Shown: one piece after another, positions 37,076 through 61,823 of the stretch
Position numbering within the stretch: position 1 is the first letter of the stretch
Layout of the letters: each line of letters starts with the position of its first letter
Source: Squalus acanthias
Taxonomy: Eukaryota
Direction of reading: 5' to 3'
Assembly: GCA_030390025.1 (NCBI GenBank)
Contig: CM059431.1
Span: 99,016,001 to 99,080,000, forward strand
Length of the DNA: 64,000 nucleotides
Made by a program: the position numbers and the translations under genes
Notes under the pieces: generated by a model
The model's input: only the letters and a program-made list of their open reading frames with translations
Told to the model about the DNA's origin: nothing
The model's database searches: none

Positions 37076-37345
37076 TTAATGTTTAATATTGATGGCAGCG
37101 TATTCCGTGCCTTCTTCGTGAGGGAGAATGACTGATGGTTTACTGCTTAACATGGATTCGTTCAATGAAGCATAAATAATTGTATCGTGCGGCGTTGTGT
37201 CGGAGGGGCGAACATTACGCTTGTGGTTTGCAGGGGAATTGCAATTGTTAACAGTTAAAGAATTCGGAATGGTGGAGCCAAGGCCTTCGGAACATTCATT
37301 CGCATTTTCATAGATTGTAGGTTTTCCATTAATTTCAGTCATAGC
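37076..37345 (-). CDS. BTLA: BTLA-like gene, terminal exon with YxN, ITIM and ITSM
   Basis: ttctttcatgttaag|GCT ATG ACT...; TIYEN (YEN 37304-37312), IIYASL (37163-37180), TEYAAI (37091-37108), stop TAA 37076-37078. Same motif order as mammalian BTLA (IYDN, IVYASLN, TEYASI). Confidence 0.85.
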   Translation of the reverse strand, partial: AMTEINGKPTIYENANECSEGLGSTIPNSLTVNNCNSPANHKRNVRPSDTTPHDTIIYASLNESMLSSKPSVILPHEEGTEYAAINIKH

Positions 37346-37494
37346 CTTAACATGAAAGAAAGAAGCAATGAGTTTTAATGAAGATATATAAATATCTCTC
37401 TCTCTATATATATATATAGCACAATGAAACAGTGCAGAATGAGAATTGTTAACTTGAATAATAAATGCTTGGTTTCAAACAGGCGGAATAAGAA

Positions 37495-38067
37495 GAAATA
37501 AAAACAGAAAATGCTGGGAATACTCAGTAGGTCGGGCAGCATCTGTGGAGAGAGAAATAGAGTTAACGTTTCATCTTGATGACCTTTTGTCAGAACTGGA
37601 AAAAGTTAGCGATGTAACAAGTGCAAGAGCAGGGAAAGAGGGGAGGGGAGGAAAGAACAAAAGGGAAGGTCTGTGATAGGGTGGAAGGCAGGAGAGGTTA
37701 AATGACAAAAGGGAGGATGGTGCGAGGCAAAAGGAGATGGTAATGGGACAAGTGAAGAAACAAAAGATGGGTCTAGAGGAGGTGTAAATGGGAATGGCAG
37801 AATCATCAACAGCTGCCATGTGAAAAAATAGGGGCAGAGGTTATGATCTGAAATTGTTGAACTCGATGTTAAGTCCAGAAGGCTGTAAAGTGCCTAATCG
37901 AAAGATGAGGTGCTGTTCCTCGAGCTTATGTAAGCTGACGAAAGGTCATCGACCTGAAACGTTGACTCTGTTTCTCTCTCCACAGATGCTGCCTGACCTG
38001 CTGCGTGTTTCCAGCATCTTTTGTTTTTATTTCAGAAGTCCAGCATCCGCAGTATTTTGCTTTTGTG
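37495..38067 (-). mobile_element. Penelope-like 3' fragment (minus, 37495-37927) joined to an inverted pLTR (plus, 37935-38067)
   Basis: Closely similar to 11115-11575; the right end is the reverse complement of the left end. Confidence 0.85.
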
Positions 38068-38314
38068 TTGGAGTACTGTAATAAGAAAGGTTTGCTGTTG
38101 GTACTAAAAGCACGTTATATATATCTCAGACGCCCCAAATGTTTCAGAAAGTGTGCGGAATGGTTAAGAAAATCGTCTTCTTCTCCAGGTGGGAGTGGCA
38201 GCTAGGGACAGGAGGAGGCCATTCAGCCCCTCCAACCTGTTCCGCCATTCAATTAGATCATGGCTGATCTGTACCTCAACTCCATTTACCCGCCTTGCTT
38301 CCGTAACTTGTGTC

Positions 38315-40062
38315 AGCCGTGGCTCAATGGGCAGCACCCTCGCCGCTGAGTCAGAAGGTTGTGGGTTCAAGTCCCACTCCAGAGACTTGAGCACAAAATC
38401 TAGGCTGACACTCCAGTGCAGTACTGAGGGAGAGCCGCACTGTCGGAGGTGCAGTACTGAGGGAGCACCGCACTGTTGGACGGGCGGTACTGAGGGAGCG
38501 CCGCACTGTCGGAGGGGCGGTACTGAGGGAGCGCCGCACTGTCGGAGGGGCAGTACTGAGGGAGCGCCGCACTGTCGGAGGGGCAGTACTGAGGGAGTGC
38601 CGCACTGTCGGAGGGGCAGTACTGAGGGAGCGCCGCACTGTCGGAGGGGCAGTGCTGAGGGAGCGCCGCACTGTCGGAGGGGCAGTACTGAGGGAGCGCT
38701 GCACTGTCGGAGGGGCAGTACTGAGGGAGTGCTGCACTGTCGGAGGAGCAGTACTGAGGGAGTGCTGCACTGTCGGAGGGGCAGTACTGAGCGAGCGCTG
38801 CACTGTCAGAGGGGCAGTACTGAGGGAGTGTTACACTGTCGGAGGAGCAGTACTGAGGGAGTGCTGCACTGTCGGAGGGGCAGTACTGAGGGAGCGCTGC
38901 GCTGTTGGAGGGGCAGTACTGAGGGAGCGCTGCACTGTCGGAGGGGCAGTACTGAGGGAGCGCCGCACTGTCGGAGGGGCAGTACTGAGGGAGTGCCGCA
39001 CTGTCGGAGGGGCAGTACTGAGGGAGCGCCGCACTGTCGGAGGGGCAGTGCTGAGGGAGCGCCGCACTGTCGGAGGGGCAGTACTGAGGGAGCGCTGCAC
39101 TGTCGGAGGGGCAGTACTGAGGGAGCGCCGCACTATCAGAGGGGCAGTACTGAGGGAGCGCTGCGCTGTCGGAGGGGCAGTACTGAGCGAGCGCTGCACT
39201 GTCGGAGGGGCAGTACTGAGGGAGTGTTACACTGTCGGAGGAGCAGTACTGAGGGAGTGCTGCACTGTCGGAGGGGCAGTACTGAGGGAGCGCTGCGCTG
39301 TTGGAGGGGCAGTACTGAGGGAGCGCTGCACTATCAGAGGGGCAGTACTGAGGGAGCGCTGCGCTGTCGGAGGGGCAGTACTGAGCGAGCGCTGCACTGT
39401 CGGTGGGGCAGTACTGAGGGAGTGTTACACTGTCGGAGGAGCAGTACTGAGGGAGCGCTGCGCTGTCGGAGGGGCAGTACTGAGGGAGTGTTACACTGTC
39501 GGAGGGTCAGTACTGAGGGAGCGCTGCACTGTCGGAGGGGCAGTACTGAGGAAGCGCTGCGCTGTTGGAGGGGCAGTACTGAGGGAGCGCTGCACTGTCG
39601 GAGGGGCAGTACTGAGGGAGCGCCGCACTGTCGGAGGGGCAGTACTGAGGGAGTGTTACACTGTCAGAGGGGCAGTACTGAGGGAGCACTGCACTGTCAG
39701 AGAGGCAGTACTGAGGGAGTGCTGCACTGTCGGAGGTGCCGTCTTTCGGGTGAGACGTTAAATCGAGGCCCCGTCTGCCCTCTGAGATGGACGTAAAAAA
39801 TACCATGGCACTAATTCAAAGAGGAGCAGGGGAGTTATCCCTGGTATCCTGGCAAATATTTATCCCTCAATCAACATCACTAAATGGATTATCTGATCAT
39901 TATCATGTTGCTGTATGTGGGAGCTTGCTGTGCGCAAATTATCTGCTGCGTTTCCCACATTCCAACAGTAACTCCACTTCAGAAAAGTGCTTCATTTGCT
40001 GTAAAGCACTTTGGGACGTCCTGAGGCTGTGAAAGCCGCTATGTTAATACAAGTCTTTCTTT
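38315..40062 (+). mobile_element. Full-length Deu-domain SINE with internal 33-bp minisatellite (~40 copies, ~38418-39736)
   Basis: A box tggctcaatgg, B box ggttcaagtcc, array of gcagtactgagggagcgccgcactgtcggaggg, then gtgccgtctttcgggtgagacgttaaa and a (tctt)n tail. Confidence 0.92.
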
Positions 40063-40400
40063 CTATCCCTCTTAATACCCTTACTCAACAATCTCAATTT
40101 TGACATTTTCAATTGACACCCCCCAGCCTCAACAGCTTTTTGGGGGAGAGAGTTCCAGATTTCCACTAGCCTTTGTGTGAAGATGGTAAAGAATATTCAA
40201 TGGAAAGAAGATTGTCCAACCCATCAGGGACACTGTATCCCAGGAGTGGATACACGTCGCACCAGGTACCTCTGCTAAACGTTCCAACAAGGCAATAACC
40301 CATGAAGTTTCTGCCGAAGGAAATCCAGTAAAACTAGAAAGAAACATCACCAGACATTTCATTCAACACGGCTGTGTGCCTATTGCAGAAGAGATTCTTA

Positions 40401-41192
40401 GGGCTGGATTTTCAATGACCCGTGGAGTCGGGTTTGGAGGCGTGTGAGGGGTTAAAGTTGCAGATTCGGGGGTCCCGACCCCATCCCGACTCCATTCCGC
40501 CTCCACGCAATTTTGACAAAATCGGTCGCGGGGTTCCCGACTCCGTCCCGCCTCCAAGAGGCGGGAGAGGCCATTAAAGCCCTTAACAAGCCCTAAATTG
40601 GCTCTGTAATGCCATTTTGAAATGTTTTAGCTAGTTTAACCCTTTTCCGACGTGAAATACGCCTGATGTGAAACACGCCAGTGAAACCTGGCGGGAGCAC
40701 AAGTGGATAGCTGACTATCAGCTGCAGGTCGACTATTACAACGGAGATGTGATGAAGGTAGTAGTAGTAGTATTAGGTGTGAAAGTCGCCTCTGATGCTG
40801 CTGCATTGAATGTCTTCAGAGACTGCCTGGGAGAACTTGGTTGCAAAAAAAATTCTCTCACGCTCTCTCTCGCTCTCTCTCGCTCTCTCTCGCTCTCACG
40901 CTCTCTCTCTCTCTCTCTCTCTCTGATGCTGCTCATTTTGCATCCAGGTCCTCTCACAGCAAAGGCCAGGCAATCTCTGAGGCCAGGCAGTCTCTGACCT
41001 GCAATGATGACATCATCAGAGGCGACTTTCAGACTGAAACCACTAATTGGTTCATGGGTTCCCACATGCTGGAACTCAATTGCCCAATTAAGTGAAAATT
41101 GCATCAATCTCCCACATCCAATTGCAGTCGGGTGGATAACACGAAATGCGGATGACACGACCCCAACCCGCCCCAGTATCAAAATCCAGCCC
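40401..41192. mobile_element. Non-autonomous PIF/Harbinger DNA transposon (792 bp)
   Basis: Perfect 12-bp TIRs GGGCTGGATTTT/AAAATCCAGCCC; TTA duplicated at 40398-40400 and 41193-41195; internal (CT)n at ~40853-40924. Confidence 0.88.
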
Positions 41193-41309
41193 TTAATGTC
41201 ACCAAAAGAAATGCAGCCACTGGCACACTGTGGGATTGTTGACCTCCAGTATCCACCCTCAACCCAACAACCATCCTTCGGTTTTGGTGTGCAGATATTT
41301 GCAAAGAAA

Positions 41310-41485
41310 GAAAAGGAAAGAAAACGCATTTCTCCAGCGCCTTTCACCGCCTCAGGACATCCCAAAGCGCTTCACAGCCAATGAAGTATTTTTAAATTGG
41401 AGTCACTGTTGTAATGTAGGAAACGCGGCCGCCAATTTGTGCACAGCAAGCTCCCACTAACAGGAATGACCAGATAGTCTGTTTT
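41310..41485 (-). mobile_element. SINE 3' tail fragment
   Basis: Family match; a separate head fragment lies at ~41640-41712. Confidence 0.75.
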
Positions 41486-41724
41486 CGTGATGTACGTTGC
41501 CTATAAGCAACATTAGCCAGACTGCTGGCTATTTCCTTGGCCATTTGACAGCCTCATGCTTGGTTTTGGTTTGAATCTGCTTACTTTTCCAGGTGGGAGG
41601 CAGGGGGTTCGGGAGGGCGAAGCTGAAAGCACAGAAGTGGAGTCCCTGGAGTGGGATGTGACTCCCCGACAACTTTCTGACTCAGAGGTGAGAGTGTTAA
41701 CAAATGAGCCGAGGCAGACATGAG

Positions 41725-44700
41725 CCACCCACTCTAATCCCACTCTACCCCTCACTCCCCGCACCCTTTAATATCCCACCCACTCTAATCCCACTCTCCT
41801 CCTCACTCCCCGCACCCTTTAATATCCCACCCAGTCCAATCCCACACTCCTGCTCACTCCCCATACCCTTTAATATCCCACCCAGTCTAATCCCACTCTC
41901 CCGCTCACTCCCTGTACACTTTAATATCCCACCCAGTCTAATCCCACTCTCCTGCTCACTCCCCATACACTTTAATATCCCACCCAGTCTAATCCCACTC
42001 TCCCGCTCACTCCCCGTACACTTTAATATCCCACCCAGTCTAATCCCACTCTCCTGCTCACTCCCCATACACTTTAATATCCCACCCACTCTAATCCCAC
42101 TCTCCCGCTCACTCCCCGTACCCTTTAATATCCCACCCAGTCTAATCCCACTCTACCCCACACTCCCCGTACCCTTTAATATCCCACCCAGTCTAATCCC
42201 ACTCTACCCCACACTCCCCGTACCCTTTAATATCCCACCCAGTCTAATCCCACTCTCCCCCTCACTCCCCGTACCCTTTAATATCCCACACAGTCTAATC
42301 CCACTCTCTCCCTCACTCCCCACACCCTTTAATATCCCACCCAGTCTAATCCCACTCTCCCGCTCACTCCCCGTATACTTTAATATCCCACCCAGTCTAA
42401 TCCCACTCTCCCCCTCACTCCCCGTATACTTTAATATCCCACCCACTCTAATCCCACTCTACCCCTCACTCCCTGCACCCTTTAATATCCCACCCAGTCT
42501 AATCCCACTCTACCCCACACTCCCCGTACCCTTTAATATCCCACCCAGTCTAATGCCACTCTACCCCTCACTCCCCGTACCCTTTAATATCCCACCCAGT
42601 CTAATCCCACTCTCCCCCTCACTCCCCGTATACTTTAATATCCCACCCACTCTAATCCCACTCTACCCCTCACTCCCCGCACCCTTTAATATCCCACCCA
42701 GTCTAATCCCACTCTCCCCACCACTCCCCGTACCCTTTAATATCCCACCCAGTCTAATCTCACTCTCCCCCTCACTCCCCGTACCCTTTAATATCCCACC
42801 CAGTCTAATCCCACCCTCCCCCCCACTCCCCGTACTCTTTAATATCCCACCCAGTCTAATCCCACTCTCCCCCTCACTCCCCATACCCTTTAATATCACA
42901 ACCAGTCTATTCCCACTCTCCCCCTCACTCCCCGTACACTTTAATATCAGACCCAGTCTAATCCCACTCTCCAGCTCACTCCCCATACCCATTAATATCC
43001 CACCCAGTCTAGTCCCACTCTCCCCCTCACTCCCTGTACACTTTAATATCTCACCCAGTCTAATCGCACGCTCCCCCTCACTCCGCGCACCCTTTAATAT
43101 CCCACCCAGTCTAATCCCACTCTCCCCTCACTCCCCGTACCCTTTAATAACCCACCCAGTCTAATCCCACTTTCCCACTCACTCCCCGAAATTTTTAATA
43201 TCCCACCAAGTCTAATCTAGCTCTCCCGCTCACTCCCCGTACCCTTTAATATCCCACCCAGTCTAATCCCACTCTCCTGCTCACTCCCCGTACCCTTTAA
43301 TATCCCACCCAGTCTAATCTCACTCTCCCCTTCACTCCCCAAACCCTTTAATATCCCACCCAGTCTAATCCCACACTCCTGCTCACTCCCCGTACCCTTT
43401 AATATCCCACACAGTCTAATCCCACTCTCTCCCTCACTCCCCACACCCTTTAATATCCCACCCAGTCTAATCCCACTCTCCCCCTCACTCCCCGTATCCT
43501 TTAATATCCCACCCAGTCTAATCCCACTCTCCCCCTCACTCCCCGTATCCTTTAATATCCCACCCAGTCTAATCCCACTCTCCCCCTCACTCCCCGTGTC
43601 CTTTAATTTCCCACCCAGTCTAATCCCACTCTCCCCCTCTCACCGTACCCTTTAATATCCCACCAGTCTAATCCGACTCTCCCCCTCACTCCCCGTACCC
43701 TTTAATATCCCACCCACTCTAATCCCACTCTCCCCCTCACTCCCCGTACCCTTTAATATCCCACCCAGTCTAATCCCACTCTCCCCCTCACTCCCCGTAT
43801 CCTTTAATTTCCCACCCAGTCTAATCCCACTCTCCCCCTCTCACCGTACCCTTTAATATCCCACCAGTCTAATCCCACTCTCCCCCTCACTCCCCGTACC
43901 CTTTAATATCCCACCCAGTCTAATCCCACTCTCCCCTCACTCCCCGTACCCTTTAATAACCCACCCAGTCTAATCCCACTTTCCCACTCACTCCCCGAAA
44001 TTTTTAATATCCCACCAAGTCTAATCTAGCTCTCCCGCTCACTCCCCGTACCCTTTAATATCCCACCCAGTCTAATCCCACTCTCCTGCTCACTCCCCGT
44101 ACCCTTTAATATCCCACCCAGTCTAATCTCACTCTCCCCTTCACTCCCCAAACCCTTTAATATCCCACCCAGTCTAATCCCACTCTCCTGCTCACTCCCC
44201 GTACCCTTTAATATCCCACCCAGTCTAATCCCACTCTCTCCCTCACTCCCCACACCCTTTAATATCCCACCCAGTCTAATCCCACTCTCCCCCTCACTCC
44301 CCGTATCCTTTAATATCCCACCCAGTCTAATCCCACTCTCCCCCTCACTCCCCGTATCCTTTAATATCCCACCCAGTCTAATCCCACTCTCCCCCTCACT
44401 CCCCGTGTCCTTTAATTTCCCACCCAGTCTAATCCCACTCTCCCCCTCTCACCGTACCCTTTAATATCCCACCAGTCTAATCCCACTCTCCCCCTCACTC
44501 CCCGTACCCTTTAATATCCCACCCACTCTAATCCCACTCTCCCCCTCACTCCCCGTACCCTTTAATATCCCACTCAGTCTAATCCCACTCTCCCCCTCAC
44601 TCCCCGTATCCTTTAATTTCCCACCCAGTCTAATCCCACTCTCCCCCTCTCACCGTAACCTTTAATATCCCACCAGTCTAATCCCACTCTCCCCCTCACT

Positions 44701-47700
44701 CCCCGTACCCTTTAATATCCCACCCACTCTAATCCCACTCTCCCCCTCACTCCCCGTACCCTTTAATATCCCACCCACTCTAATCGCACTCTACCCCTCA
44801 CTCCCCATACACTTTAATATCCCATCCAGTCTAATCCCACTCTCCCCCTACTCCCTGTAACCTTTAATATCTCACCCAGTCTAATCCCACTCTCCTGCTC
44901 TCTCCGCGCACCCTTTAATATCCCATCCAGTCTAATCCCACTCTCCCCCTCACTCCCCGTACCCTTTACTATCTCACCCAGTTGAATCCCACTCTCCCCT
45001 CACTCCCAATACCCTTTAATATCTCACCCAGTCTAATCCCACTCTCCCCCTCACTCCCTGTACCCTTTAATATCTCACCCAGTCTAATCCCACTCTCCTG
45101 TTCACTCCGCGCACCCTTTAATATCCCATCCAGTCTAATCCCACTCTCCCCCTCACATCCTGCACCCTTTAATATCTCACCCAGTCTAATCACACCCTCC
45201 CCCTCACTCCACGCACCCTTTAATATCGCACCCAGTCTAATCCCACTCTACCCCTCACTCCCCGTACCCTTTAATATCTCACCCAGTTTAAACCCACTCT
45301 CCCCTCACTCCCCGTACCCTTTAATATCCCACCCAGTCGAATCCCACTCTCCCGCTCACTCCCCGAACTCTTTAATATCCCACCAATTCTAATCTCACTC
45401 TCCCCCTCACTCCCCGTACCCTATAATATCCCACCCAGTCTAATCCCACTCTCCCCCTCACTCCGCGTACCCTTTAATATCCCACCCAGTCTAATCCCAC
45501 TCTCCCGCTCACTCCCCGTACCCTTTAATATCCCACCCAGTCTAATCCCACTCTCCTGCTCACTCCCCACACTCTTTCATATCCCACCCAGTCTAATCCC
45601 ACTCTCTCCCTCACTCCCCACACCCTTTAATATCCCACCCAGTCTAATCCTACTCTCCTGCTCACTCCCCATACCCTTTAATATCCCACCCAGTCTAATC
45701 CCACTCTCCCCATCACTCCCCAAATTCTTTAATATCCCACCCAGTCTAATCTCACTCTCCTGCTCACTCCCCGTAACCTTTAATATCCCACCCAGTCTAA
45801 TCCCACTCTCTCCCTCACTCCCCACACCCTTTAATATCCCACCCAGTCTAATCCGACTCTATCGCTCACTCCCCGCACCCTTTAATATCCCACCCAGTCT
45901 AATTCCACTCTCCTGCTCACTCCCCGCACCCTTTAATATCCCACCCAGTCTAATCCCACTCTACCCCTCACTCCCCGTACCCTTTAATATCGCACCCATT
46001 CTAATCCCACTCTCCCCCTCACTCCCCGTACCCTTTAATATCCCACCCAGTCTAATCCCACTCTCCCCCTCACTCCCCATACCCTTTAATATCCCACCCA
46101 GTCTAATCCCACTCTCCCTCTCGCTCTCTCTATCCTTTAATAACCCACCCAGTCTAATCCAACTCTCCCGCTCACTCCCCGTACCCTTTCATATCCCACC
46201 CAGTCTAATCCCACTCTCTCCCTCACTCCCCACACCCTTTAATATCCCACCCAGTCTAATCCTACTCTCCTGCTCACTCCCCATACCCTTTAATATCCCA
46301 CCCAGTCTAATCCCACTCTCCCCTTCACTCCCCAAATTCTTTAATATCCCACCCAGTCTAATCTCACTCTCCTGCTCACTCCCCATACCCTTTAATATCC
46401 CACCCAGTCTAATCCCACTCTCCCCCTCACTCCCCGTACCCTTTAATATCCCACCCACTCTAATCCCACTCTACCCCTCACTCCCCATACACTTTAATAT
46501 CCCACCCAGTCTAATCCCACTCTCCAGTTCACTCCCCATACCCATTAATATCCCACCCAGTCTAATCCCACTCTCCCCCTCACTCCCTGTACCCTTTAAT
46601 ATCTCACCCAGTCTAATCCCACTCTCCTGCTCTCTCCGCGCACCCTTTAATATCCCATCCAGTCTAATCCCACTCTCCCCCTCACTCCCCGTACCCTTTA
46701 CTATCTCACCCAGTTGAATCCCACTCTCCCCTCACTCCCAATACCCATTAATATCCCACCCAGTCTAATCCCAGTATCCCCCTCACATCCTGTACCCTTT
46801 AATATCTCACCCAGTCTAATCACACCCTCCCCCTCACTCCGCGCACCCTTTAATATCGCACCCAGTCTAATCCCACTCTACCCCTCACTCCCCGTACCCT
46901 TTAATATCTCACCCAGTTTAAACCCACTCTCCCCTCACTCCCCGTACCCTTTAATATCCCACCCAGTCGAATCCCACTCTCCCGCTCACTCCCCGAACTC
47001 TTTAATATCCCACCAATTCTAATCTCACTCTCCCCCTCACTCCTCGTACCCTTTAATATCCCACCCAGTCTAATCCCACTCTCCCCCTCACTCCGCGTAC
47101 CCTTTAATATCCCACCCAGTCTAATCCCACTCTCCCGCTCACTCCCCGTACCCTTTAATATCCCACCCAGTCTAATCCGACTCTATCGCTCACTCCCCGC
47201 ACCCTTTAATATCCCACCCAGTCTAATTCCACTCTCCTGCTCACTCCCCGCACCCTTTAATATCCCACCCAGTCTAATCCCACTCTCCTGCTCACTCCCC
47301 GCACCCTTTAATATCCCACCCAGTCTAATCCCACTCTACCCCTCACTCCCCGTACCCTTTAATATCGCACCCATTCTAATCCCACTCTCCCCCTCACTCC
47401 CCGTACCCTTTAATATCCCACCCAGTCTAATCCCACTCTCCCCCTCACTCCCCATACCCTTTAATATCCCACCCAGTCTAATCCCACTCTCCCTCTCGCT
47501 CTCCCTATCCTTTAATAACCCACCCAGTCTAATCCAACTCTCCCGCTCACTCCCCGTACCCTTTCATATCCCACCCAGTCTAATCCCACTCTCTCCCTCA
47601 CTCCCCACACCCTTTAATATCCCACCCAGTCTAATCCTACTCTCCTGCTCACTCCCCATACCCTTTAATATCCCACCCAGTCTAATCCCACTCTCCCCTT

Positions 47701-50700
47701 CACTCCCCAAATTCTTTAATATCCCACCCAGTCTAATCTCACTCTCCTGCTCACTCCCCATACCCTTTAATATCCCACCCACTCTAATCCCACTCTACCC
47801 CTCACTCCCCATGCACTTTAATATCCCACCCAGTCTAATCCCACTCTCCCCCTCACTCCCCGTACCCTTTAATATCCCACCCACTCTAATCCCACTCTAC
47901 CCCTCACTCCCCATACACTTTAATATCCCACCCAGTCTAATCCCACTCTCCAGTTCACTCCCCATACCCATTAATATCCCACCCAGTCTAATCCCACTCT
48001 CCCCCTCACTCCCTGTACCCTTTAATATCTCACCCAGTCTAATCCCACTCTCCTGCTCTCTCCGCGCACCCTTTAGTATCCCATCCAGTCTAATCCCACT
48101 CTCCCCCTCACTCCCCGTACCCTTTACTATCTCACCCAGTTGAATCCCACTCTCCCCTCACTCCCAATACCCATTAATATCCCACCCAGTCTAATCCCAG
48201 TCTCCCCCTCACTCCCTGTAACCTTTAATATCTCACCCAGTCTAATCGCACCCTCCCCCTCACTCCGCGCACCCTTTAATATCCCACCCAGTCTAATCCC
48301 ACTCTCCCGCTCACTCCCCGTACCCTTTAATATCTCACCCAGTTTAAACCCACTCTCCCCTCACTCCCCGTACCCTTTAATATCCCACCCAGTCGAATCC
48401 CACTCTCCCGCTCACTCCCCGAACCCTTTAATATCCCACCCAGTCTAATCTCACTCTCCCCTCACTCCCCGTACCCTTTAATATCCCACCCAGTCTAATC
48501 CCACTCTCCCCCTCACTCCGCGTACCCTTTAATATCCCACCCAGTCTAATCCCACTCTCCCTCTCGCTCTCCCTATCCTTTAATAACCCACCCAGTCTAA
48601 TCCCACTCTCCCGCTCACTCCCCGTACCCTTTAATATCCCACCCAGTCTAATCCCACTCTCCTGCTCACTCCCCACACCCTTTCATATCCCACCCAGTCT
48701 AATCCCACTCTCTCCCTCACTCCCCACACCCTTTAATATCCCACCCAGTCTAATCCCACTCTCCTGCTCACTCCCCGTACCCTTTAATATCCCACCCAGT
48801 CTAATCCCACTCTCCCCATCACTCCCCAAATTCTTTAATATCCCACCCAGTCTAATCTCACTCTCCTGCTCACTCCCCGTAACCTTTAATATCCCACCCA
48901 GTCTAATCCCACTCTCTCCCTCACTCCCCACACCCTTTAATATCCCACCCAGTCTAATCCGACTCTATCGCTCACTCCCCGCACCCTTTAATATCCCACC
49001 CAGTCTAATCCCACTCTATCGCTCACTCCCTGTACCCTTTAATATCCCACCCAGTCTAATCCCTCTCTCCCCCTCACTCCCCACACCCTTTAATATCCCA
49101 CCCAGTCTAATCCCACTCTACCCCTCACTCCCCGTACCCTTTAATATCGCACCCATTCTAATCCCACTCTCCCCCTCACTCCCCGTACCCTTTAATATCC
49201 CACCCAGTCTAATCCCACTCTCCCCCTCACTCCGCGTACCCTTTAATATCCCACCCAGTCTAATCCCACTCTCCCTCTCGCTCTCCCTATCCTTTAATAA
49301 CCCACCCAGTCTAATCCCACTCTCCCGCTCACTCCCCGTACCCTTTAATATCCCACCCAGTCTAATCCCACTCTCCTGCTCACTCCCCACACCCTTTCAT
49401 ATCCCACCCAGTCTAATCCCACTCTCCCGCTCACTCCCCGTACCCTTTAATATCCCACCCAGTCTAATCCCACTCTCCTGCTCACTCCCCACACCCTTTC
49501 ATATCCCACCCAGTCTAATCCCACTCTCTCCCTCACTCCCCACACCCTTTAATATCCCACCCAGTCTAATCCCACTCTCCCGCTCACTCCCCGTACCCTT
49601 TAATATCCCACCCAGTCTAATCCCACTCTCCCCATCACTCCCCAAATTCTTTAATATCCCACCCAGTCTAATCTCACTCTCCTGCTCACTCCCCGTAACC
49701 TTTAATATCCCACCCAGTCTAATCCCACTCTCTCCCTCACTCCCCACACCCTTTAATATCCCACCCAGTCTAATCCGACTCTATCGCTCACTCCCCGCAC
49801 CCTTTAATATCCCACCCAGTCTAATCCCACTCTATCGCTCACTCCCTGTACACTTTAATATCCCACCCAGTCTAATCCCACTCTACCCCTCACTCCCCGT
49901 ACCCTTTAATATCGCACCCATTCTAATCCCACTATCCCCCTCACTCCCCGTACCCTTTAATATCCCACCCAGTCTAATCCCACTCTCCCCCTCACTCCGC
50001 GTACCCTTTAATATCCCACCCAGTCTAATCCCACTCTCCCTCTCGCTCTCCCTATCCTTTAATAACCCACCCAGTCTAATCCCACTCTCCCGCTCACTCC
50101 CCGTACCCTTTAATATCCCACCCAGTCTAATCCCACTCTCCTGCTCACTCCCCACACCCTTTCATATCCCACCCAGTCTAATCCCACTCTCTCCCTCACT
50201 CCCCACACCCTTTAATATCCCACCCAGTCTAATCCTACTCTCCTGCTCACTCCCCATACCCTTTAATATCCCACCCAGTCTAATCCCACTCTTCCCATCA
50301 CTCCCCAAATTCTTTAATATCCCACCCAGTCTAATCCCACTCTCTCCCTCACTCCCCACACCCTTTAATATCCCACCCAGTCTAATCCGACTCTATCGCT
50401 CACTCCCCGCACCCTTTAATATCCCACCCAGTCTAATCCCACTCTCTCCCTCACTCCCCACACCCTTTAATATCCCACCCAGTCTAATCCGACTCTATCG
50501 CTCACTCCCTGTACACTTTAATATCCCACCCAGTCTAATCCCACTCTACCCCTCACTCCCCGTACCCTTTAATATCGCACCCATTCTAATCCCACTCTCC
50601 CCCTCACTCCCCGTGCCCTTTAATATCCCACCCAGTCTAATTCCACTCTCCTGCTCACTCCCCGCACCCTTTAATATCCCACCCAGTCTAATCCCACTCT

Positions 50701-51692
50701 CCGCCTCACTCCCCATACCCTTTAATATCCCACCCAGTCTAATCCGTCTCTATCGCTCACTCCCCGCACCCTTTAATATCCCACCCAGTCTAATTCCTCT
50801 CTCCTGCTCACTCCCCGCACCCTTTAATATCCCACCCAGTCTAATCCCACTCTATCGCTCACTCCCTGTACACTTTAATATCCCACCCAGTCTAATCCCA
50901 CTCTACCCCTCACTCCCCGTACCCTTTAATATCGCACCCATTCTAATCCCACTCTCCCCCTCACTCCCCGTACCCTTTAATATCCCACCCAGTCTAATCC
51001 CACACTCCCGCTCACTCCTTGTACCCTTTAATATCCCACCCAGTCTAATCCCACTCTCCTGCTCGATCCCCAGACCCTTTAATATCCCACCCAGTCTAAT
51101 CCCACTCTCCAGCTCACTCCCTGTACCCTTTAATATCCCACCCAGTCTAATCCCACTCTCCTGCTCGATCCACAGACCCTTTAATATCCCACCCAGTCTA
51201 ATCCCACTCTCCCGCTCACTCCCCGTACCCTTTAATATCCCACCCAGTGTAACCCCACTCTCCTGCTCGATCCACAGACCCTTTAATATCCCACCCAGTC
51301 TAATCCCACTCTCCTGCTCACTCCCCGTTCTGTTTAATATCCCACCCAGTGTAATCCCACTCTCCCCCTCACTCCCCGTACCCTTTAATATCCCACCCAG
51401 TCTAATCCCACCCTCCCCCTCACTCCCCGTACACTTTAATATCCCACCCAGTCTAATCCCACTCTCCCCCTCCCTCCCTGTACCCTTTAATATCCCACCC
51501 AGTCTAATCCCACTCTCCTGCTCGATCCGCAGACCCTTTAATATCCCTCCCAGTCTAATCCCACTCTCCCGCTCACTCCCTGTACCCTTTAATATCCCAC
51601 CCAGTCTAATCCCACTCTCCTGCTCACTCCCCGTTCTGTTTAATAGCCCACCCAGTCTAATCCCACTCTCCTGCTCGCTCTCTGTACCCTTT
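41725..51692. repeat. ~10 kb tandem array, 51-bp unit, about 195 copies
   Basis: Consensus cccacccagtctaatcccactctccccctcactccccgtaccctttaatat; explains the 17-aa periodic ORFs. Confidence 0.98.
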
Positions 51693-51935
51693 AAGATTCC
51701 AGTTTTTCAAGCAACTATTTCATTCTCTTTTAAAATAATTTCAGGTTTCTGTATCAGCCATGGTTTGTGGCCAAGATCTCCACATTCTAACCACCCTGAG
51801 TGCAAAGACATTTTTTTAAAAACGTCCCCTTCAATTCTTGTGATTATCTTCAGTTTGTGCCGTCATCTCAGTGGACACAATCTATCATTATATTCATCTT
51901 ATCAGAACCCTTCATAATCTTGAAGACCTCTAAAG
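51693..51935 (-). mobile_element. Old CR1 3' fragment that runs directly into the 51-bp array
   Basis: Minus strand EVFKIMKG near 51930 and FKRE*NSCLKNWNLKGYRERAGEWD* across the array boundary. Confidence 0.8.
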
Positions 51936-52539
51936 ACTTCATAACCTTGACTGCTCCAAAGTGGACCCGAAATTCTCAACTGGCTCTTCAGAGGCCGCTG
52001 TGTAAATCAGTCTAATTCTGCTTGTAGTTTTCGCCAAAACAACTAAGACTGTGAATAAAGGCTGAAGTAAGTATCTAAGTGGCTGCGCACTATCATAAAA
52101 CACCTGATAGCTGCACTGTCTCAGTCTCTGAACCTCTCTCAGTTCTCTGCCTCAGATCTACAGCGATGGAACTGGAAACAAATTAAAAAAAATATTATTT
52201 AAATTATTAATAGTCATGATATAATAGCAGTAACGGACGAGGTTTTGGCGTGTGAGAGCCCCTATCTGCACCTGGCTTTGTCTTAGGCTAGAATTCTTTT
52301 GTAGTTTTCTAAGGCCTGTACTGGTCTCACACTTTCTGAATCATTATTGCCTCAGTACCTGTGCAGTCGAAGGGAATATCTCACACTGAGCCATCAATGC
52401 AAGGTACATGGTGCATGTATATCATGTTCCACCTCGCATGCAAGAGTTACTTAAGATCAACTCTAATAGGATCAAACCCAATTTAAGATGATGTGCAAAA
52501 CCATTTGCTCGATAGTTCCCTTCCCATACTATTATTTTT

Positions 52540-53035
52540 TACATCGAATCTACAGCACAGAAACAGGCCATTCGGCCCAACTGGTCCGTGCCGGTGTTTC
52601 TGCTCCACACGAGCCTCCTCCCACCCCTCTTCATCTCACCCCATCAACATATCCTTCTATTCCTTTCTCCCTCATGTGTTTATCCAGCTTCCCCTTAAAT
52701 GCATCTTTGCTATTCTCCTCAACCACTCCCTGTGGTAGCAAGTTCCACATTCTCACCACTCTCTAGGTAAAGAAGTTTCTCCTGAATTCACTTTTGGATT
52801 TATTAGTGACTATCTCATATTTATGGCCCTAGTTTTGGTCTCTCCCACAAGTGGAAACATCTTCTCTATGTCTACCCTATCAAAACCTTTCAATTTTAAA
52901 GAGCTCTATCGGGTCGCCCCTCAGCCTTCTCTTTTCTAGAGAAAAGAGCCCCAGCCTGTTCAGTCTTCCCTGAGAGTTATAACCGCTCAGTTCTGTTATC
53001 ATCCTTGGAAATCTTTTTTGCACCTTCTCCAATGC
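52540..53035 (-). mobile_element. CR1 3' fragment
   Basis: Reverse complement of the 655-970 subfamily. Confidence 0.8.
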
Positions 53036-53723
53036 ATAATTTTAATGGAATAGGACAATAATTCATCTATCAAGGTACCATTGCTCTAACGTAATTATGA
53101 GGTGGCTTGCCAAGAGAGGTCATGGAGGTGAGTCAACCCCTCAGTTGTAGCCCCATCTCCAACCCACACTCCCTTGAAGTGTGTCTCCCCAGTGGAAGCA
53201 CAGGATTGTTCAATTATACGTTATTATACGAGTCCTTATACGTAAAGCTCGAATGTTTTATTTGTGAAGATCTTGAGACGAAAGAACTTTCATTGCACAA
53301 GCAGCACCAGTCAATGGGAGTTAAACTCCTCTCCCTTTCTTGGGGACTCACAGGAACGCACACCTTCACTCTCTGTTTCTCCTGGAAGGTGAGGTGTGTT
53401 GAGCTGCGCTAAAGGTGAGAGCTGAGCGGCCAGATGGAATTGGAGACATGAGGTGTGGTGAGTGTAGCGAGCTCGGGAGGAACGGGTGACTTTGGACCTC
53501 TGGTTCCCAAAGCTCTCCCCCACTGGGGGTTTTCCTCGCCTCATGTCTGGGTCTGTTGTAGACTCATTGATAGAGATTGATCGCTGTGATTGGTCAACAA
53601 CTCCATTATCGTTGTTGATCGGGCCCATGATCCACCTCCCGACAGTTCTGGCCTGTTGGGGAAGTCCTCACTGCGACCCCTTCCCCCACTCAGGCCTCCG
53701 GCTAATATAACAGATCGGATCCT

Positions 53724-53876
53724 GATGACACCATCAGGACCCGATGACATCATCAGTAGCCGACGACATCATCAGACCCTGATGACATCATCGGTATTCA
53801 ACAACATCATCAGGATCTGACGACATCATCAGGACCCGATGACATCATCGGTATCCGATGACATCATCAGGACCCG
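53724..53876. repeat. 19-bp tandem repeat, about 8 copies
   Basis: Unit gatgacatcatcaggaccc with variants. Confidence 0.85.
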
Positions 53877-54494
53877 ATCTGCATATTTAAAGGACCCCGC
53901 TTCATCCCATTTGCCTGCTCAAAAGAGCAGGTTAACATCATGACGTGATGGTGGGATGGCGGTGGTATCACAGGAGGTAAGTCGCTGCCTTTATTTTAAC
54001 TTTCCCCCCGGCCTGGTTTCCATCAGGCGAAGGGGAGGGGGAGGCGGTGGGGTAATTAAAATCGGGACCTATAAAACCCCGTGCTCCCCGTAACAATGTC
54101 CAACTAAAGTGCATTGAAGGAAGTGAGTCAGGATTGGAGCCCTTCCTTTCGGAGGGTGGGTCCAACTCTGTTTCACCTTGGAGTCAGTTTGGACCTTAGC
54201 CCCCCACCCCTGCCGATTCACACTCTGCAATTTCAGCATCGGGCGTGAAGCCGAATGGGCCTCTCGCTGGGGCTGAACCTGCAGAGCAAACGCAACCCCG
54301 AGAATATTTGGGGCGAAAACTTCGAGCTGTGATAAACGAGGCAGACGAAGCCGATGAAATTAAACACCTTGAGTGAGACTGAATAAAAAATCACTCGGTG
54401 GGAATATTAAACCCGCCCGCACAAACTGCTCCAAAAACTCAAGCTGGCTATGAGAATGGAAGATCTGTTGCGGAGTTTGGGTTTGGTGCATGTA

Positions 54495-55110
54495 CAACAA
54501 CATCAACTGCTTGCATTTATATAGCGCCTTTAATGTTGTAAAACATCCCAAGATGCTTCACAAGGAGTGTAACCAGACAACTTGTGACACCAAGCCACAT
54601 AAGGAGATATTAGGACAGCAGATCAAAAAGAGGAGAGAGAGGTAGAGAGGCGGAGAGGTTTAGGGAGGGAATTCCAGAGCTTGGGGCCGAGGCAGCTGAA
54701 GGCGCGGCCCCCAATGGTGGAGCGATTAAAATCGGGGATGTGCAAGAGTCCAGAATTGGAGGAGCGCAGAGATCTCGGGGGATTGTAGGGCTGGAGGAGG
54801 TTACAGAGATAGGGAGGGGCGAGGCCATGGAGGGATTTGAAGACAAGGATGAGAATTTTAAAATCGAGGTGTTGCCGGACCGGGAGCCAATGTAGGTCAG
54901 CGAGCACAGGGGTGATGGGTGAACGGGACTTGGTGCGAGTTAGGACACGGGGCAGCAGAGTTTTGGATGAGCTGAAGTTTATGTAGGGTGGAAGGTGGGA
55001 GGCCGGCCAGGAGTGCGTTGGAGGTAACAAAAGGCATGGATGAGGGTTTCATCAGCAGATGGACTGAGGCAGGGGCGGAGACGGGCGATGTTACGGAGGT
55101 GGAATTAGGC
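54495..55110 (-). mobile_element. L2-clade LINE 3' fragment
   Basis: PITPVLADLHWLPVRQHLDFKILILVFKSLHGLAPPYL...GGRAFS...LWNSLP; tail ggcgctatataaatgcaag+(ttg)n. Confidence 0.88.
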
Positions 55111-55224
55111 AGTCTAAGAGTAGGAAATAGCATCAAGACACCTTTAGGAGGAAAAGTCCTTGGGGGGACATTTTGACTTTAGCTGATAGCCACCAATAGA
55201 AACTAAAATAGGGAGAGGTGTTTA

Positions 55225-56410
55225 AGGGCCCTGATGAGACCACACCTGGAGTACTGTGTACAGTTTTGGTCTCCTTACCTAAGGAAGGACATACTTGCCA
55301 TAGAGGGAGTGCAATGAAGGTTCACCAGACTGATTCCTGGGATGGGGGGATTGTCCTATGAGGAGAGATTGAGTAGACTAGGCCTATATTCTCTGGAGTT
55401 TAGAAGAATGAGAGGTGATCTCATTGAAACATACAAAATTCTTACAGGACTTGACAGGGTAGATGCAGGGCGGATGTTTTCCCTGGCTGGGGAGTCTCGA
55501 ACCAGGGTCACAGTATCAGAATAAGGGGTCGGCCATTTAAGACTGAGATGAGGAGAAATTTCTTCACTCAGAGGGTGGTGAATCTTTGTGGAATTCTCTA
55601 CCCCAGAGGGCTGTGGAGATTCAATCGTTGAGTATATTCAAGGCTGAGATCGGTAGATTTTTGGATATTAAGGGAATCAAGGGATATGGAGATAGTGTAG
55701 GAAAGTGGAGTTGAGGTAGAAGATCAGCCATGATCTTATTGAATGGCGGAGCAGGCTCGAGGGGCCGAATGGCCGACTCCTGCTCCTAATTCTTATGTTC
55801 TTACGTTTTTAACGGGAGGCAGAGCTGATATCACATATTTGACATTATTATTTAAAGCCAAAATGACCCGCTTGTGATCTCTCCCTTTTTGAGGGCTTAA
55901 TTCTAAACCTTTATTAATCACTGATTCGGCCTCAGCTGGAGTATTGAACGGTCCCAGGGATGAGGGACTTCAGTTACGTGGAGAGACTGGAGAAGCTGGG
56001 GTTGTTCTCCTTAGAGCAGAGAAGGTTAAGGGGAGATTTAATAGAGGTGTTCAAAATCATGAAGGGTTTTGCTGGAATAAATAAGGAGAAACTGTGTCCA
56101 GTGGCAGGAGGGTCGGTAACCAGAGGACACAGATTGAAGGTCATTGGCAAAAGAACCAGAGGGGAGATGAGGAGAATTTATTTTATGCAGCGAGTTGTTG
56201 TGATCTGGAATGCGCTGCCTGAAAGGGCGGTGGAAGCAGATTCAATAGTAACTTTCAAAAGGGAATTGGATAAATACTTGAAAAGGAAAAATTTGCAGGG
56301 CTATGGGGAGAGAGCAGGGGGGAGTGGGACTAATTGGAGAGCTCTTTCAAAGAGCCGGCACAGGCACGATGGGCCGAATGGCCTCCTCCTGTGCTGTATC
56401 ATTCTCTGAT
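55225..56410 (+). mobile_element. Two tandem CR1 3' fragments (~55225-55803 and ~55900-56410)
   Basis: ORFs 55342-55524 and 55960-56409 are CR1 ORF2 C-termini with different tails. Confidence 0.85.
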
Positions 56411-56515
56411 TCAATGCATGGAGCACAGCAGCAGAAGGAGGAAGAAATACATTGCTTTGACTTTCAAATCTACGTTCTCTAGAATCACTGATATAATGAA
56501 AACGTCCAGACTTAC

Positions 56516-56568
56516 ATGGCACTCGTTCCTTCGACAGGTTTCACCAGGTTGTATGCTTTCTAGGGGTT
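56516..56568 (-). CDS. BTLA: BTLA-like gene, juxtamembrane cytoplasmic exon (53 nt, phase 1-0), EPLESIQPGETCRRNECH
   Basis: catttttctag|AACCCC...TGCCAT|gtaagt; 113-nt intron after the TM exon; supplies exactly the phase change needed to join the terminal exon. Confidence 0.8.
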
Positions 56569-56681: not shown

Positions 56682-56822
56682 CCTTAAAGTTTCTGATGCA
56701 AAAATATGTGATCATGACAAGAAATAGAACGGCACCCACTATTCCCACGACAATAATACTGTAAAAAATCCAATCCGGGGTACTGTTAGTCGTAAAATTC
56801 ATTGTGGCGGTTGCTGCAGTCA
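56682..56822 (-). CDS. BTLA: BTLA-like gene, transmembrane exon (141 nt, phase 1-1)
   Basis: tgttttgtgttttgcag|TG...AAG G|gtgaga; encodes VTAATATMNFTTNSTPDWIFYSIIVVGIVGAVLFLVMITYFCIRNFK (Thr-rich stalk, hydrophobic helix, Cys, basic stop-transfer). Confidence 0.85.
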
Positions 56823-56857
56823 CTGCAAAACACAAAACATACAGAGTTTATAGCACG

Positions 56858-57212: not shown

Positions 57213-57282
57213 ACGTGTTGAGCAGAAATGCATTCTGCCCCCCCCCCCCGCCAACCATGTTATCATTTTCAAACATCGTCAC

Positions 57283-58929: not shown

Positions 58930-60250
58930 AATAGGATTGGGCAGAGTCAACACGGATTTATGAAAGGGAAATCGTGTTTGACAAATCTGTTAGAGATTTT
59001 TGAGGTTGTAACTAGCAGAATAGATAAGGGGGAACCAGTGGATGTGGTGTATTTGGATTTTCAGAAGGCATACGATAAGGTGCCACACAAGAGGCTATTA
59101 AACAAAATTAGGGCTCCTGGGATTGGGGGTAATATACTAGCATGGATTGAGGATTGGTTAACGGACAGAAAACAGAGAGTAGGAATAAACGGGTCATTTT
59201 CGGGTTGGCAGGCTGGAACTAGTGGGGTTACCACAAGGATCAGTGCTTGGGCCTCAGCTATTCACAATCTATATCAATGATTTGGATGAGGGGACCAAAT
59301 GTGATATATCCAAGTTTGCTGATGATACAAAGCTAGGTTAGAATGTAAGTTGTGAGGAGGATTCAAGGAGGCTTCAAGGGGATATAGACAGGCTAAGTGA
59401 GCGGGCAAGAACATGGCAAATGGATATAATGTGGAGAAATGTGAAGTTATCCACTTTGGTAGGAAAAATAGAAAAGCAGAGTATTTTTTAAATGGTGAGA
59501 GATTGGGAAATGTTGGTGTTCAGAGGGACCTGAGTGTCCTTGTACACGAATTGCTGAAAGTTAACATGCAAGTACAGCAAGCAATTAGGAAAGCAAATGG
59601 TATGTTGGCCTTTATTACAAGAGGATTTGAGTATAAGAGTAAAGATGTCTTACTGCAATTATATAGGGCCCTGGTGAGACCACACCTGGAGTATTGTGTA
59701 CAGTTTTGGTCTCCTTACCTAAGGAAGGATATACTTGCCATAGAGGGAGTGCAACGAAGGTTCACCAGACTGGTTCCTGGGATGGGGGGGATTGTCCTAT
59801 GAGGAGAGATTGAATAGACTAGGCCTATATTCTCTAGAGTTTAGAAGAATGAGAGGTGATCTCATTGAAACATATCGAATTCTTACAGGGCTTGACAGGG
59901 TAGATGCAGGGAGGATGTTTCCCCTGGCTGGGGAGTCTAGAACCAGGGGTCACAGTCTCAGAATGAGGGGTCGGCCATTCAGGACTGAGATGAGGAGAAA
60001 TTTCTTCACTCAGAGGGTGGTGAATCTTTGGAATTCTCTACCCCAGAGGGCTGTGGAGGCTCAGTCGTTGAGTATATTCAAGACAGAGATCGATAGATTT
60101 TTGAATATTACGGGAATCAAGGGATATGGGGATAGTGCAAGAAAGTGGAGATGAGGTAGAAGATCAGCCATGATCTTATTGAATGGCGGAGCAGGCTTGA
60201 GGGGCCGAATGGCCGACTCCTGCTCCTATTTCTTATGTTCTTATGTTCTT
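58930..60250 (+). mobile_element. CR1 RT to 3' end fragment with frameshifts
   Basis: [41 protein letters not shown]; ttcttatg tail. Confidence 0.92.
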
Positions 60251-60867
60251 AGATGGGCCGAAGGTCTTCTCCTGCCTGAAACTGGTACTATGGCTGCATA
60301 TCATATATTGTAAAGTGTCTGCTCTTTCGTTCTTAGTGGATTTATGTGCAAAAAAAGCAAACCAGTATCCTTCCCAAAGAGGGTGATGATGATAGTTATA
60401 TTCTCTCCTTCTTCCCAGATGGGTATGGTCTCTTTTGGTTCTTGTGAATTATGTTAGCCAGCTGGCTAAGGTGCTAAAACATCAAACCCTGTGTTTTGTT
60501 GGTGTTCATGGGATGGAATCCTGCAGATTGACCTCATCCCTCAGATTCGGCGTCAGGAACTGTTTGCAGGGAGCTTTCCCATGACATTCGCAGCAAAGTG
60601 ATATTGATATTATTTTATAAATTCGTAAAAATTAGTGTGGCTCCTTTGGAGAGAATCTAGTCTGAGGCTCCCTCACACACAGCATAACTCTATAAGCAGA
60701 ATTTCAAGGTGTGAGAATGTTGAGGTGTTACCTTGTAAAGGAGCAACAGATCGACCTCCGCTAATGTTGAGATCTTTTCTTTCTTGAACTGTTTGAACCC
60801 CTTGCCCTTACAACGAGGCTAAGTTTCCCCACACCTCCCACCGTGGTAAATCTTAAGATCCTATCGG

Positions 60868-61460
60868 AACATAGGCTATTCAGCCCCTCGAGCCTGTTCC
60901 ACCATTCAATGAGATCATGGCTGATCTGTATCTCAACTCCATCTACTCGCCTTAGTTCCGTAACCCTTAATACTCTTACCCAACAAAAATCTATCGATCT
61001 CAGTTTTGAAATTTTCAATCGACCCCCCCAGTCTCAACAGCTTTTTAGGGAGGAGAGTTCCAGATTTCCGCTACCCTTTGTGTGAAGAAGTGCTTCCTGA
61101 CATCACCCCTGAACGGCCTGGCTCTAATTTTAAGGTGACGCCCCCTTGTTCTGGACTCCCCCCACCAGAGGAAATAGTTTCTCTCTCTCCACCCGATCGA
61201 ATCCTTTAATCACCTTAAACACCTCGATTAGATCACCCCTTAATCTTCTATACTTGAGGGAATACAAGCCCAGTCTGTGCAACCTGTCCTCATAATTTAA
61301 CCCTTTTAGCTCCGGTGTCATTCTGGTGAATCTGCGCTCCCCCCCACTCCAAGGCCAATATATCCTTCCTGAGGTGTGGGGCCCAGAACTGAACACAGTG
61401 TCCAGATGGGGTCTGACCAGAGCTTTATATAAACTGCAACATAACTTCCACCCCTTTGAG
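60868..61460 (-). mobile_element. CR1 3' fragment
   Basis: LYKALVRPHL...LGLYSLKYRRLRGDLIEVFK. Confidence 0.85.
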
Positions 61461-61787
61461 ATAAAAACTAACACCTCAAGGAATTCTACCATTTCTGGTT
61501 ACAATGGATTATTGTTCTCATGTTGCTAAGCAACAGAACACACAGCCAATAGCAATGGAGACAGCGTCTAGTGTTGATGACAGCATCGATTGCGGTGAAG
61601 ATCATTGTAACTTGATTGATGTCTCATTTCATGAGAATCCTGATTGTTTAGAGTAAGGGATGTGTAACGAGTAAGCAATTCATATGCTTCTTACTGGAAA
61701 CGCGCTGTAGGTTGTATTGACTTAGCACAGAAGAAAAAAACACAAGTACCAGTTGTTGCCACTAAGAAAAAACAGCTAAGGACTCAC

Positions 61788-61823
61788 CAGTGGTGCTGTT
61801 CCCATCAAAGTGCCCCGTTGATT
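61788..61823 (-). CDS. BTLA: BTLA-like gene, 36-nt stalk micro-exon (phase 1-1), (E)STGHFDGNSTT
   Basis: Minus strand tttatctatttctctag|AATCAACG...ACCACTG|gtgagtc: good pyrimidine tract, consensus donor, in frame with the TM exon, N-glycosylation sequon NST. Confidence 0.65.

What the first reader, a model, noticed from the sequence alone, without database searches (positions are those of the whole stretch)
37076..61823. Four-exon BTLA-like checkpoint receptor hidden among repeats, tail-to-tail with USF3
Seen: four minus-strand exons with canonical, phase-compatible splice sites assemble to (E)STGHFDGNSTT-VTAATATMNFTTNSTPDWIFYSIIVVGIVGAVLFLVMITYFCIRNFK-EPLESIQPGETCRRNECH-AMTEINGKPTIYEN...TIIYASLNES...EGTEYAAINIKH*. 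Established: the Grb2-type YxN, ITIM, ITSM order is the BTLA signature, and human BTLA and USF3 both map to 3q13.2. Inference: a cartilaginous-fish BTLA orthologue, with small exons that automated annotation could miss.
Basis: partly seen in the sequence, partly recalled or inferred. Interest (0 to 1): 0.7.

Follow-up and report, generated by a model that had tools for sequence, protein, structure and literature searches.

The report
Shark BTLA immune brake gene
This is the back two-thirds of a shark's gene for BTLA, a known receptor that damps lymphocyte activation; it is real and spliced as proposed, but the same gene is already annotated in many other sharks and rays.

Summary
Confirmed, and ordinary. 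The four minus-strand exons have AG/GT ends and join into one open frame. The last exon alone finds 12 shark and ray proteins at 63-79% identity, 8 of 12 already named BTLA or BTLA-like. Their profile ranks solved BTLA domains first in the PDB and reaches BTLA of sturgeon, coelacanth, frogs, reptiles and a vole. The tail has YxN, ITIM and ITSM at BTLA spacing. The neighbour is USF3, on the same chromosome in 11 of 11 elasmobranchs checked. Corrections: the gene probably has six exons, since leader and Ig lie beyond the window; it is not hidden from annotation; human BTLA's neighbour is CD200. Small extras: the 36-nt exon is an optional stalk exon, half of the relatives read YENM, and tail-less paralogues exist. 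Five paper searches showed no study of shark BTLA.

The parts
61788..61823 (-). Exon A, 36 nt, phase 1-1: optional 12-residue stalk exon with one N-glycosylation sequon
   Evidence: AG/GT ends; joint to exon B in 4 of 4 runs; equals the exact 12-residue difference between isoforms X1 and X2 in 3 of 3 species tested
56682..56822 (-). Exon B, 141 nt: Thr-rich stalk and transmembrane helix (about 56757-56695)
   Evidence: 36 of 47 residues identical to P0001; best 21-residue hydropathy 2.86; covered by contigs in 4 of 4 runs
56516..56568 (-). Exon C, 53 nt: membrane-proximal cytoplasmic segment
   Evidence: 14 of 18 residues identical to P0001; joint to exon B in 4 of 4 runs
37076..37345 (-). Exon D, coding part, 89 residues and stop: signalling tail
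   Evidence: 70 of 89 identical to P0001; E 2e-32
37301..37312 (-). YENA, Grb2/GADS-type YxNx motif
   Evidence: consensus from PMC11599192
37163..37180 (-). IIYASL, ITIM
   Evidence: consensus from PMC12151841; invariant in 15 of 15 relatives of alignment A3 at IIYASL
37091..37108 (-). TEYAAI, ITSM; its Tyr lies 24 residues after the ITIM Tyr and 7 before the end
   Evidence: human Y257 and Y282 of 289 give 25 and 7
36467..37075 (-). Probable 3' UTR, with ATTAAA at 36491-36486 as likely poly(A) signal
   Evidence: hexamer; contig lengths imply 3' ends at 36484 and 36467 for X1 and X2 if C joins D directly; inference
37346..56515 (-). Last intron, 19,170 nt, 77% repeated within the window, holding a 10-kb array of a 51-bp unit (41725-51701) and a 33-bp array (38418-39736)
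2526..9241 (+). Last coding exon of USF3, the convergent neighbour; its stop lies about 27.8 kb from the BTLA stop
   Evidence: best hits are named USF3, 86-92% identity in sharks; 83-86% over the whole exon

Best explanation
The four exons are the 3' part of the elasmobranch BTLA gene: an optional stalk exon, a stalk-plus-transmembrane exon, a short cytoplasmic exon and the tail exon. Leader and Ig exon lie beyond base 64000. The product is a type I membrane receptor of about 300 residues with one Ig domain. Most likely mechanism, by analogy with mammals: ligand binding (probably the TNF-receptor-family protein HVEM) leads to phosphorylation of the ITIM and ITSM tyrosines, which together dock the tandem SH2 domains of SHP-1 or SHP-2 and damp T- and B-cell receptor signalling; the YxN site binds Grb2 and gives a weaker survival signal. 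Skipping the 36-nt exon shortens the stalk by 12 residues. Shown: exon structure, two of three joints, homology, motifs and spacing, neighbour. Inferred: third joint, the upstream exons, lymphocyte expression, phosphatase binding (about 0.85), HVEM as ligand (about 0.65).
For: Exon D hits 12 chondrichthyan proteins, 8 of 12 named BTLA or BTLA-like; the joined frame is 126 of 165 identical to P0001 and collinear with it, with no room for a further exon. Profile A1 ranks five BTLA structures first among 58 PDB matches, best E 5e-16, against 9e-7 for CD160; no PD-1, SIGLEC, CD300 or PECAM row is listed; a single sequence gives the same order. The six BTLA cysteines (PMC5464627) are all listed in 9 of 11 relatives; one showed five because of my cut-off and the skate has four. 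Of 20 hits looked up, 12 are named BTLA or BTLA-like, from sturgeon to vole. ITIM-to-ITSM distance is 24 here and 23-28 in the 26 of 32 proteins that have both. Joints A>B and B>C in 4 of 4 runs. Same chromosome as USF3 in 11 of 11 elasmobranchs and in the alligator; consecutive accessions in 3 of 6 species. Mechanism in mammals: PMC10795259, PMC6449624, PMC8043046 (passages).
Against: The Ig exon of this very gene was not seen, so all ectodomain evidence comes from relatives. The runs are only guessed to be RNA, have no tissue on record, and differ from the window in exon B (3 extra letters, 4-5 substitutions), so they may be other individuals or species. Identity of sawshark BTLA to bony-vertebrate BTLA is only 18-27%, and the word-index search with the profile reached no bony vertebrate. 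Accessions of BTLA and USF3 are about 1,100-1,250 apart in 3 of 6 species. The Ig tree had no outgroup and its bootstrap had not settled. No binding or signalling was tested.
Confidence: 0.93

Rival explanations
1. It is BTLA by descent but uses another ligand or has a different output in sharks, for example PD-L1 binding, or mainly a Grb2/PI3K survival signal, with ligand work shared among chondrichthyan paralogues.
For: Ig identity to bony-vertebrate BTLA is low. All 14 chondrichthyan Ig domains in the tree, 3 of them from paralogues without ITIM/ITSM, form one branch (100/99). A paper title names a PD-L1/BTLA axis in zebrafish (seen only as a reference entry). 9 of 18 relatives read YENM.
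Against: ITIM and ITSM are nearly invariant across sharks and rays. The cysteine frame is kept, and BTLA-HVEM contacts are mostly main-chain (PMC5464627), which tolerates sequence drift. A BTLA-HVEM axis is reported in zebrafish (passage in PMC8043046).
Confidence: 0.2
2. It belongs to another ITIM/ITSM receptor family (PD-1, SIGLEC, CD300, PECAM, TIGIT, CD28H) and the BTLA names in databases are propagated errors.
For: ITIM followed by ITSM also occurs in PD-1; YxN tails occur in CD28H; 4 of 12 close relatives have no BTLA name.
Against: The PDB ranking does not rest on shark annotation and puts BTLA first. None of 20 hits looked up carries such a name (20 of 150 listed). Motif spacing and the 7-residue end match human BTLA.
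Confidence: 0.02
3. The window's copy is a remnant or truncated form without an Ig exon, or ends after exon C, like three database models that lack the tail.
For: No Ig exon in the window. Models of whale shark, a numbfish and elephant shark lack exon D. Exon B of the window is one codon shorter than in the laid runs.
Against: All four frames are open and all splice sites intact. Runs found by exon D and its UTR hold contigs with 757-932 letters after exon B and 386-598 before it, which fits a whole mRNA. The whale shark model reads on into intron-like sequence at the exon C donor, which points to a modelling error.
Confidence: 0.03

Closest known systems
Elasmobranch BTLA models in RefSeq/UniRef (P0001 Pristiophorus japonicus; P0143/P0002 Heptranchias perlo; P0146/P0006 Heterodontus francisci; P0003 Cetorhinus maximus)
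   Same: Same exon units, same three tyrosine motifs, same optional 12-residue stalk exon, same link to USF3; 58-76% identity over the 165 residues compared for full-tail sharks.
   Different: Another species: best identity 76-79%, no identical protein listed. Exon B is one residue shorter than in most relatives. ITSM is preceded by Gly where the relatives have Asp.
Human BTLA (CD272)
   Same: Type I receptor, one Ig domain, tail with Grb2 site, ITIM, ITSM; tyrosine spacing 25 against 24 here; 7 residues after the last Tyr in both; six-cysteine Ig domain in relatives.
   Different: Human has 5 exons; the shark gene probably has 6, the extra one being the 36-nt stalk exon. Human neighbour is CD200, here USF3. 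The shark tail has three tyrosines; several bony-vertebrate tails have a second YxN-type site.
CD160
   Same: Related Ig domain (E 9e-7 to profile A1); shares the ligand HVEM in mammals.
   Different: Ranks far below BTLA; lacks an ITIM/ITSM tail (recalled, not from a call).
PD-1
   Same: ITIM then ITSM with Glu before the Tyr; present in sharks (PMC12151841).
   Different: Not among the PDB matches of profile A1; CD28-family Ig domain and other ligands (recalled).

Membership tests
BTLA | Cytoplasmic tail with Grb2-type YxN, ITIM and ITSM in that order | tested here: met
   YENA, IIYASL, TEYAAI in exon D; definition from PMC10795259
BTLA | ITIM-ITSM tyrosine spacing near 25, ITSM close to the C terminus | tested here: met
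   24 and 7 residues here; 23-28 in 26 of 32 proteins examined, the other 6 lack the pair; human 25 and 7
BTLA | Type I topology with one transmembrane helix after a stalk | tested here: met
   One 21-residue stretch of mean hydropathy 2.86 in exon B
BTLA | Single Ig domain with three disulphides, closest to solved BTLA | tested here: inconclusive
   Exon outside the window. Met in the orthologues: top five PDB rows are BTLA; six Cys in 9 of 11 as printed
BTLA | Homology to named bony-vertebrate BTLA over the full length | tested here: met
   Profile A3 of relatives: 12 of 20 looked-up hits named BTLA or BTLA-like, E 1e-33 to 3e-17; alignment
BTLA | Linkage to the human 3q13 gene block | tested here: met
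Human BTLA 3q13.2; USF3 only placed within 3q13.13-q21.2. One marker only
BTLA | Spliced transcript | tested here: met
   Two of three joints in 4 of 4 runs, two studies, RNA guessed
BTLA | Expression in lymphocytes and lymphoid organs | not testable with these tools
   No library or tissue on record for the runs
BTLA | Binds HVEM | not tested
   No shark HVEM sequence in hand and the Ig exon lies outside the window
BTLA | Recruits SHP-1/SHP-2 and inhibits antigen-receptor signalling | not testable with these tools
   Needs a cell assay
PD-1, SIGLEC, CD300, PECAM | Ectodomain closest to these families | tested here: not met
   None among 58 PDB matches of the relatives' profile or 20 named look-ups

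The most novel reading that the evidence does not exclude
Cartilaginous fishes run a small BTLA system of their own: a signalling receptor whose first tyrosine site is often YENM, a CD28-like double site for Grb2 and PI3K; an optional stalk exon that sets the receptor's height and so the balance of cis and trans HVEM binding; and tail-less one- and two-Ig paralogues on other chromosomes, kept from chimaera to sharks, that act as decoys or fill the role of CD160. BTLA would then have begun as a two-way switch with direct PI3K coupling.
Probability: 0.2. Interest if true: 0.45.

Novelty: new member of a known kind. Interest (0 to 1): 0.17.

Why it matters
Modestly. It adds one species to a gene that databases already name in many sharks and rays. 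It does show BTLA, with its whole signalling tail, in the oldest lineage with T and B cells, as was recently shown for PD-1 and LAG-3 (titles and abstracts). Five searches of the open library showed no paper on shark BTLA, and a 2026 survey still lists BTLA as mammal-specific (PMC13262535, Table 1), so a short comparative note would be useful. The nearly invariant tail marks which residues around the ITIM and ITSM matter.

Tried and rejected
No whole genome is held for this window, so the Ig and leader exons could not be fetched. Pfam gave nothing above cut-off for exon D, exon B or the USF3 exon. The Atlas gave no usable hit for the last 400 residues of USF3; USF3 was then identified by protein search. 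The word-index search with profile A1 returned 22 proteins, all chondrichthyan; bony vertebrates appeared only in the full HMMER scan. No run is on record as RNA: no RNA holder listed. Joint 56516>37345 stays unlaid. Skipping of exon A in the laid runs can be neither shown nor excluded, as tables 5, 7 and 8 were cut. No Ig or leader exon in the window: after exons D, B and C the next profile match has E 3.1. Extra exon in the 19-kb intron: rejected, since relatives run straight from C to D and contig lengths fit. The Ig tree dropped 4 of 32 proteins that my pattern missed (P0166, P0168, P0186, P0206), took only the first domain of P0019, and had no outgroup; it cannot give order of events. A paper search for HVEM-contact residues gave 0 papers, then 1, so contact residues were not scored. 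The bacterial promoter scan does not apply to this DNA and was ignored. No fold or complex was predicted: the Ig exon is outside the window and no shark HVEM was in hand. Supplements of the papers were not read; those of PMC11599192, PMC12151841 and PMC13262535 may list shark BTLA. Bernard et al. 2007 on 'multiple BTLAs' was seen only as a reference entry and may cover cartilaginous fish.
Full report
Observation. Each follows an AG, the first three are followed by GT, the phases fit, and the join gives 166 residues ending in TAA. Exon B holds one hydrophobic helix. Exon D holds YENA, IIYASL and TEYAAI, and is the only one of 3600 six-frame segments of the window with these three motif types in order. 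The surroundings are repeat-rich: 46% of the window and 77% of the last intron match other parts of the window, and a 51-bp unit repeated 196 times fills 41725-51701.

Splicing. A search with exon D and its downstream region listed 18 runs from 5 studies; none is on record as RNA, 14 are guessed RNA. I laid 4 of the 18 (two studies, organisms A and B) on 56420-61990. In each, one contig skips 56823-61787 and 56569-56681 exactly, with CT..AC ends on the + strand, that is GT..AG on the minus strand. These contigs have 386-598 letters before exon B and 757-932 after it. If exon C joins exon D directly, the two longest end at 36484 and 36467, beside an ATTAAA at 36491. Upstream of exon A they hold 350-562 letters; the sawshark protein needs 427 for leader and Ig domain. 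The contigs differ from the window in exon B by 3 extra letters and 4-5 substitutions, so they may come from other individuals or species.

Identity. Exon D alone finds 12 proteins, all from sharks and rays, at 63-79% identity; 8 of 12 are named BTLA or BTLA-like, 4 uncharacterized. The joined frame is 126 of 165 identical to the sawshark protein and collinear with it. To avoid leaning on those names I searched the PDB with their profile: the first five of 58 matches are BTLA domains (best E 5e-16), CD160 comes at 9e-7, and PD-1, SIGLEC, CD300 and PECAM are absent; one sequence alone gives the same top five. Human BTLA has six cysteines in three disulphides (PMC5464627, passages); all six are printed for 9 of 11 relatives, five for one because of my cut-off, four for the skate. 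A full HMMER scan with a 15-sequence profile listed 150 proteins; of 20 looked up, 12 are named BTLA or BTLA-like (sturgeon, bowfin, gar, coelacanth, five amphibians, alligator, lizard, vole), and the other 8 are hypothetical, uncharacterized, unnamed or carry unrelated labels. Identity to bony-vertebrate BTLA is only 18-27%, but Ig cysteines, ITIM Tyr and ITSM Glu-Tyr are invariant in 25 of 25 aligned. The ITIM-ITSM distance is 24 here, 23-28 in the 26 of 32 proteins with both motifs, and 25 in human, where 7 residues follow the last Tyr as here (PMC10795259, passages).

Gene structure. Leader and Ig exon are not in the window, so the gene probably has six exons against five in human; the count of upstream exons is inferred. 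The 36-nt exon is optional in relatives: isoforms X1 and X2 differ by exactly these 12 residues in 3 of 3 species tested, 6 of 12 proteins lack them, and a spadefoot toad has a 10-residue insert at the same place. It carries a sequon here and in 7 of 16 relatives. Whether it is skipped in this species was not shown.

Neighbourhood. The long + strand frame ending at 9241 is USF3 (86-92% identity to shark USF3 in the region searched; 83-86% overall). Of 143 frames of 75 aa or more outside tandem arrays, 135 were scanned; 84 lie between the two stops and 3 of these hit Pfam, all retroelement domains. BTLA and USF3 share a contig length in 11 of 11 elasmobranchs where both were listed with one, and in the alligator; species with only one of the two listed were left out. 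Their accessions are consecutive in horn shark and two skates, and about 1,100-1,250 apart in three other sharks (3 of 6), a weak proxy for adjacency. In human, BTLA is at 3q13.2 with CD200 beside it; USF3 was placed only within 3q13.13-q21.2, and its band and a distance of about 1.2 Mb are recalled.

Mechanism. [quoted passage not shown] The near-invariance of both distal motifs makes the same brake likely here. The Glu before the ITSM Tyr argues against a true SAP switch, by the reasoning given for PD-1 (PMC12151841 section 21); that is my inference. The ligand is least certain. Nothing on binding or signalling was tested.

Extras. The first tyrosine site reads YENM in 9 of 18 relatives, YENT in 4, YENA in 3, other in 2; YxNM fits both Grb2 and PI3K consensus, as in CD28 (PMC11599192, passages). 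The window has YENA. Five chondrichthyan proteins have BTLA-type Ig domains but no ITIM/ITSM pair, on contigs of other lengths than the BTLA of the same species in 5 of 5; the three that entered the tree sit on one branch with shark BTLA (100/99, unrooted, rough). They lie outside the window.

Novelty. The gene is already annotated as BTLA in many sharks and rays, so this is a new species member. Annotation is imperfect: three models lack the tail exon. Five searches of the open library (listings seen) showed no paper on shark BTLA; subscription papers, among them Bernard et al. 2007, and supplements were not seen. One 2026 survey lists BTLA as mammal-specific (PMC13262535 section 8, part 1), which these hits contradict. 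Verdict: real, correctly read, ordinary; interest 0.17.

Noticed in passing
window 56776-56786 (exon B): All four laid runs carry 3 extra letters and 3 shared substitutions here (a fourth in organism B), while organism A holds about 0.9 of the words of exon D and its UTR. Allele, other species or assembly error in the stalk.
   Followed up: no
window 37301-37312 and relatives: The site reads YENA here but YENM in 9 of 18 relatives, a possible double Grb2/PI3K site.
   Followed up: partly
P0019, P0166, P0168, P0022, P0177 (outside the window): Chondrichthyan proteins with BTLA-type Ig domains and no ITIM/ITSM pair: two-Ig forms with a hydrophobic end (catshark, whale shark, elephant shark) and one-Ig membrane forms (epaulette shark, sevengill shark). 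All uncharacterized in the sources.
   Followed up: partly
P0017, P0020, P0021: Models of whale shark, a numbfish and elephant shark stop without the tail exon; the whale shark model reads on at the exon C donor into sequence like the window's intron.
   Followed up: partly
window 41725-51701: 196 copies of a 51-bp unit inside the last intron, with GC skew near -0.83.
   Followed up: no
window 29046-29879, 38418-39736, 63645-63996, 22320-23018: Three arrays of a related 33-bp unit and one of a 32-bp unit give long spurious open frames.
   Followed up: no
window 23838-24853: Frames that recall a decayed Harbinger-type Myb/SANT gene (recalled likeness); no Pfam hit.
   Followed up: partly
window 11110-11793, 31548-33162, 58915-59277: Retroelement remains: a weak GIY-YIG hit, an endonuclease and two reverse transcriptase pieces.
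   Followed up: no
P0203, P0176: A turtle protein labelled MORN repeat-containing protein 4 and a frog protein labelled DCC-like align as BTLA-type proteins; likely mislabels.
   Followed up: no
window 1-7: End of the preceding USF3 exon with a GT donor; it joins in phase 1 to the exon at 2526 and matches the shark USF3 protein there.
   Followed up: partly
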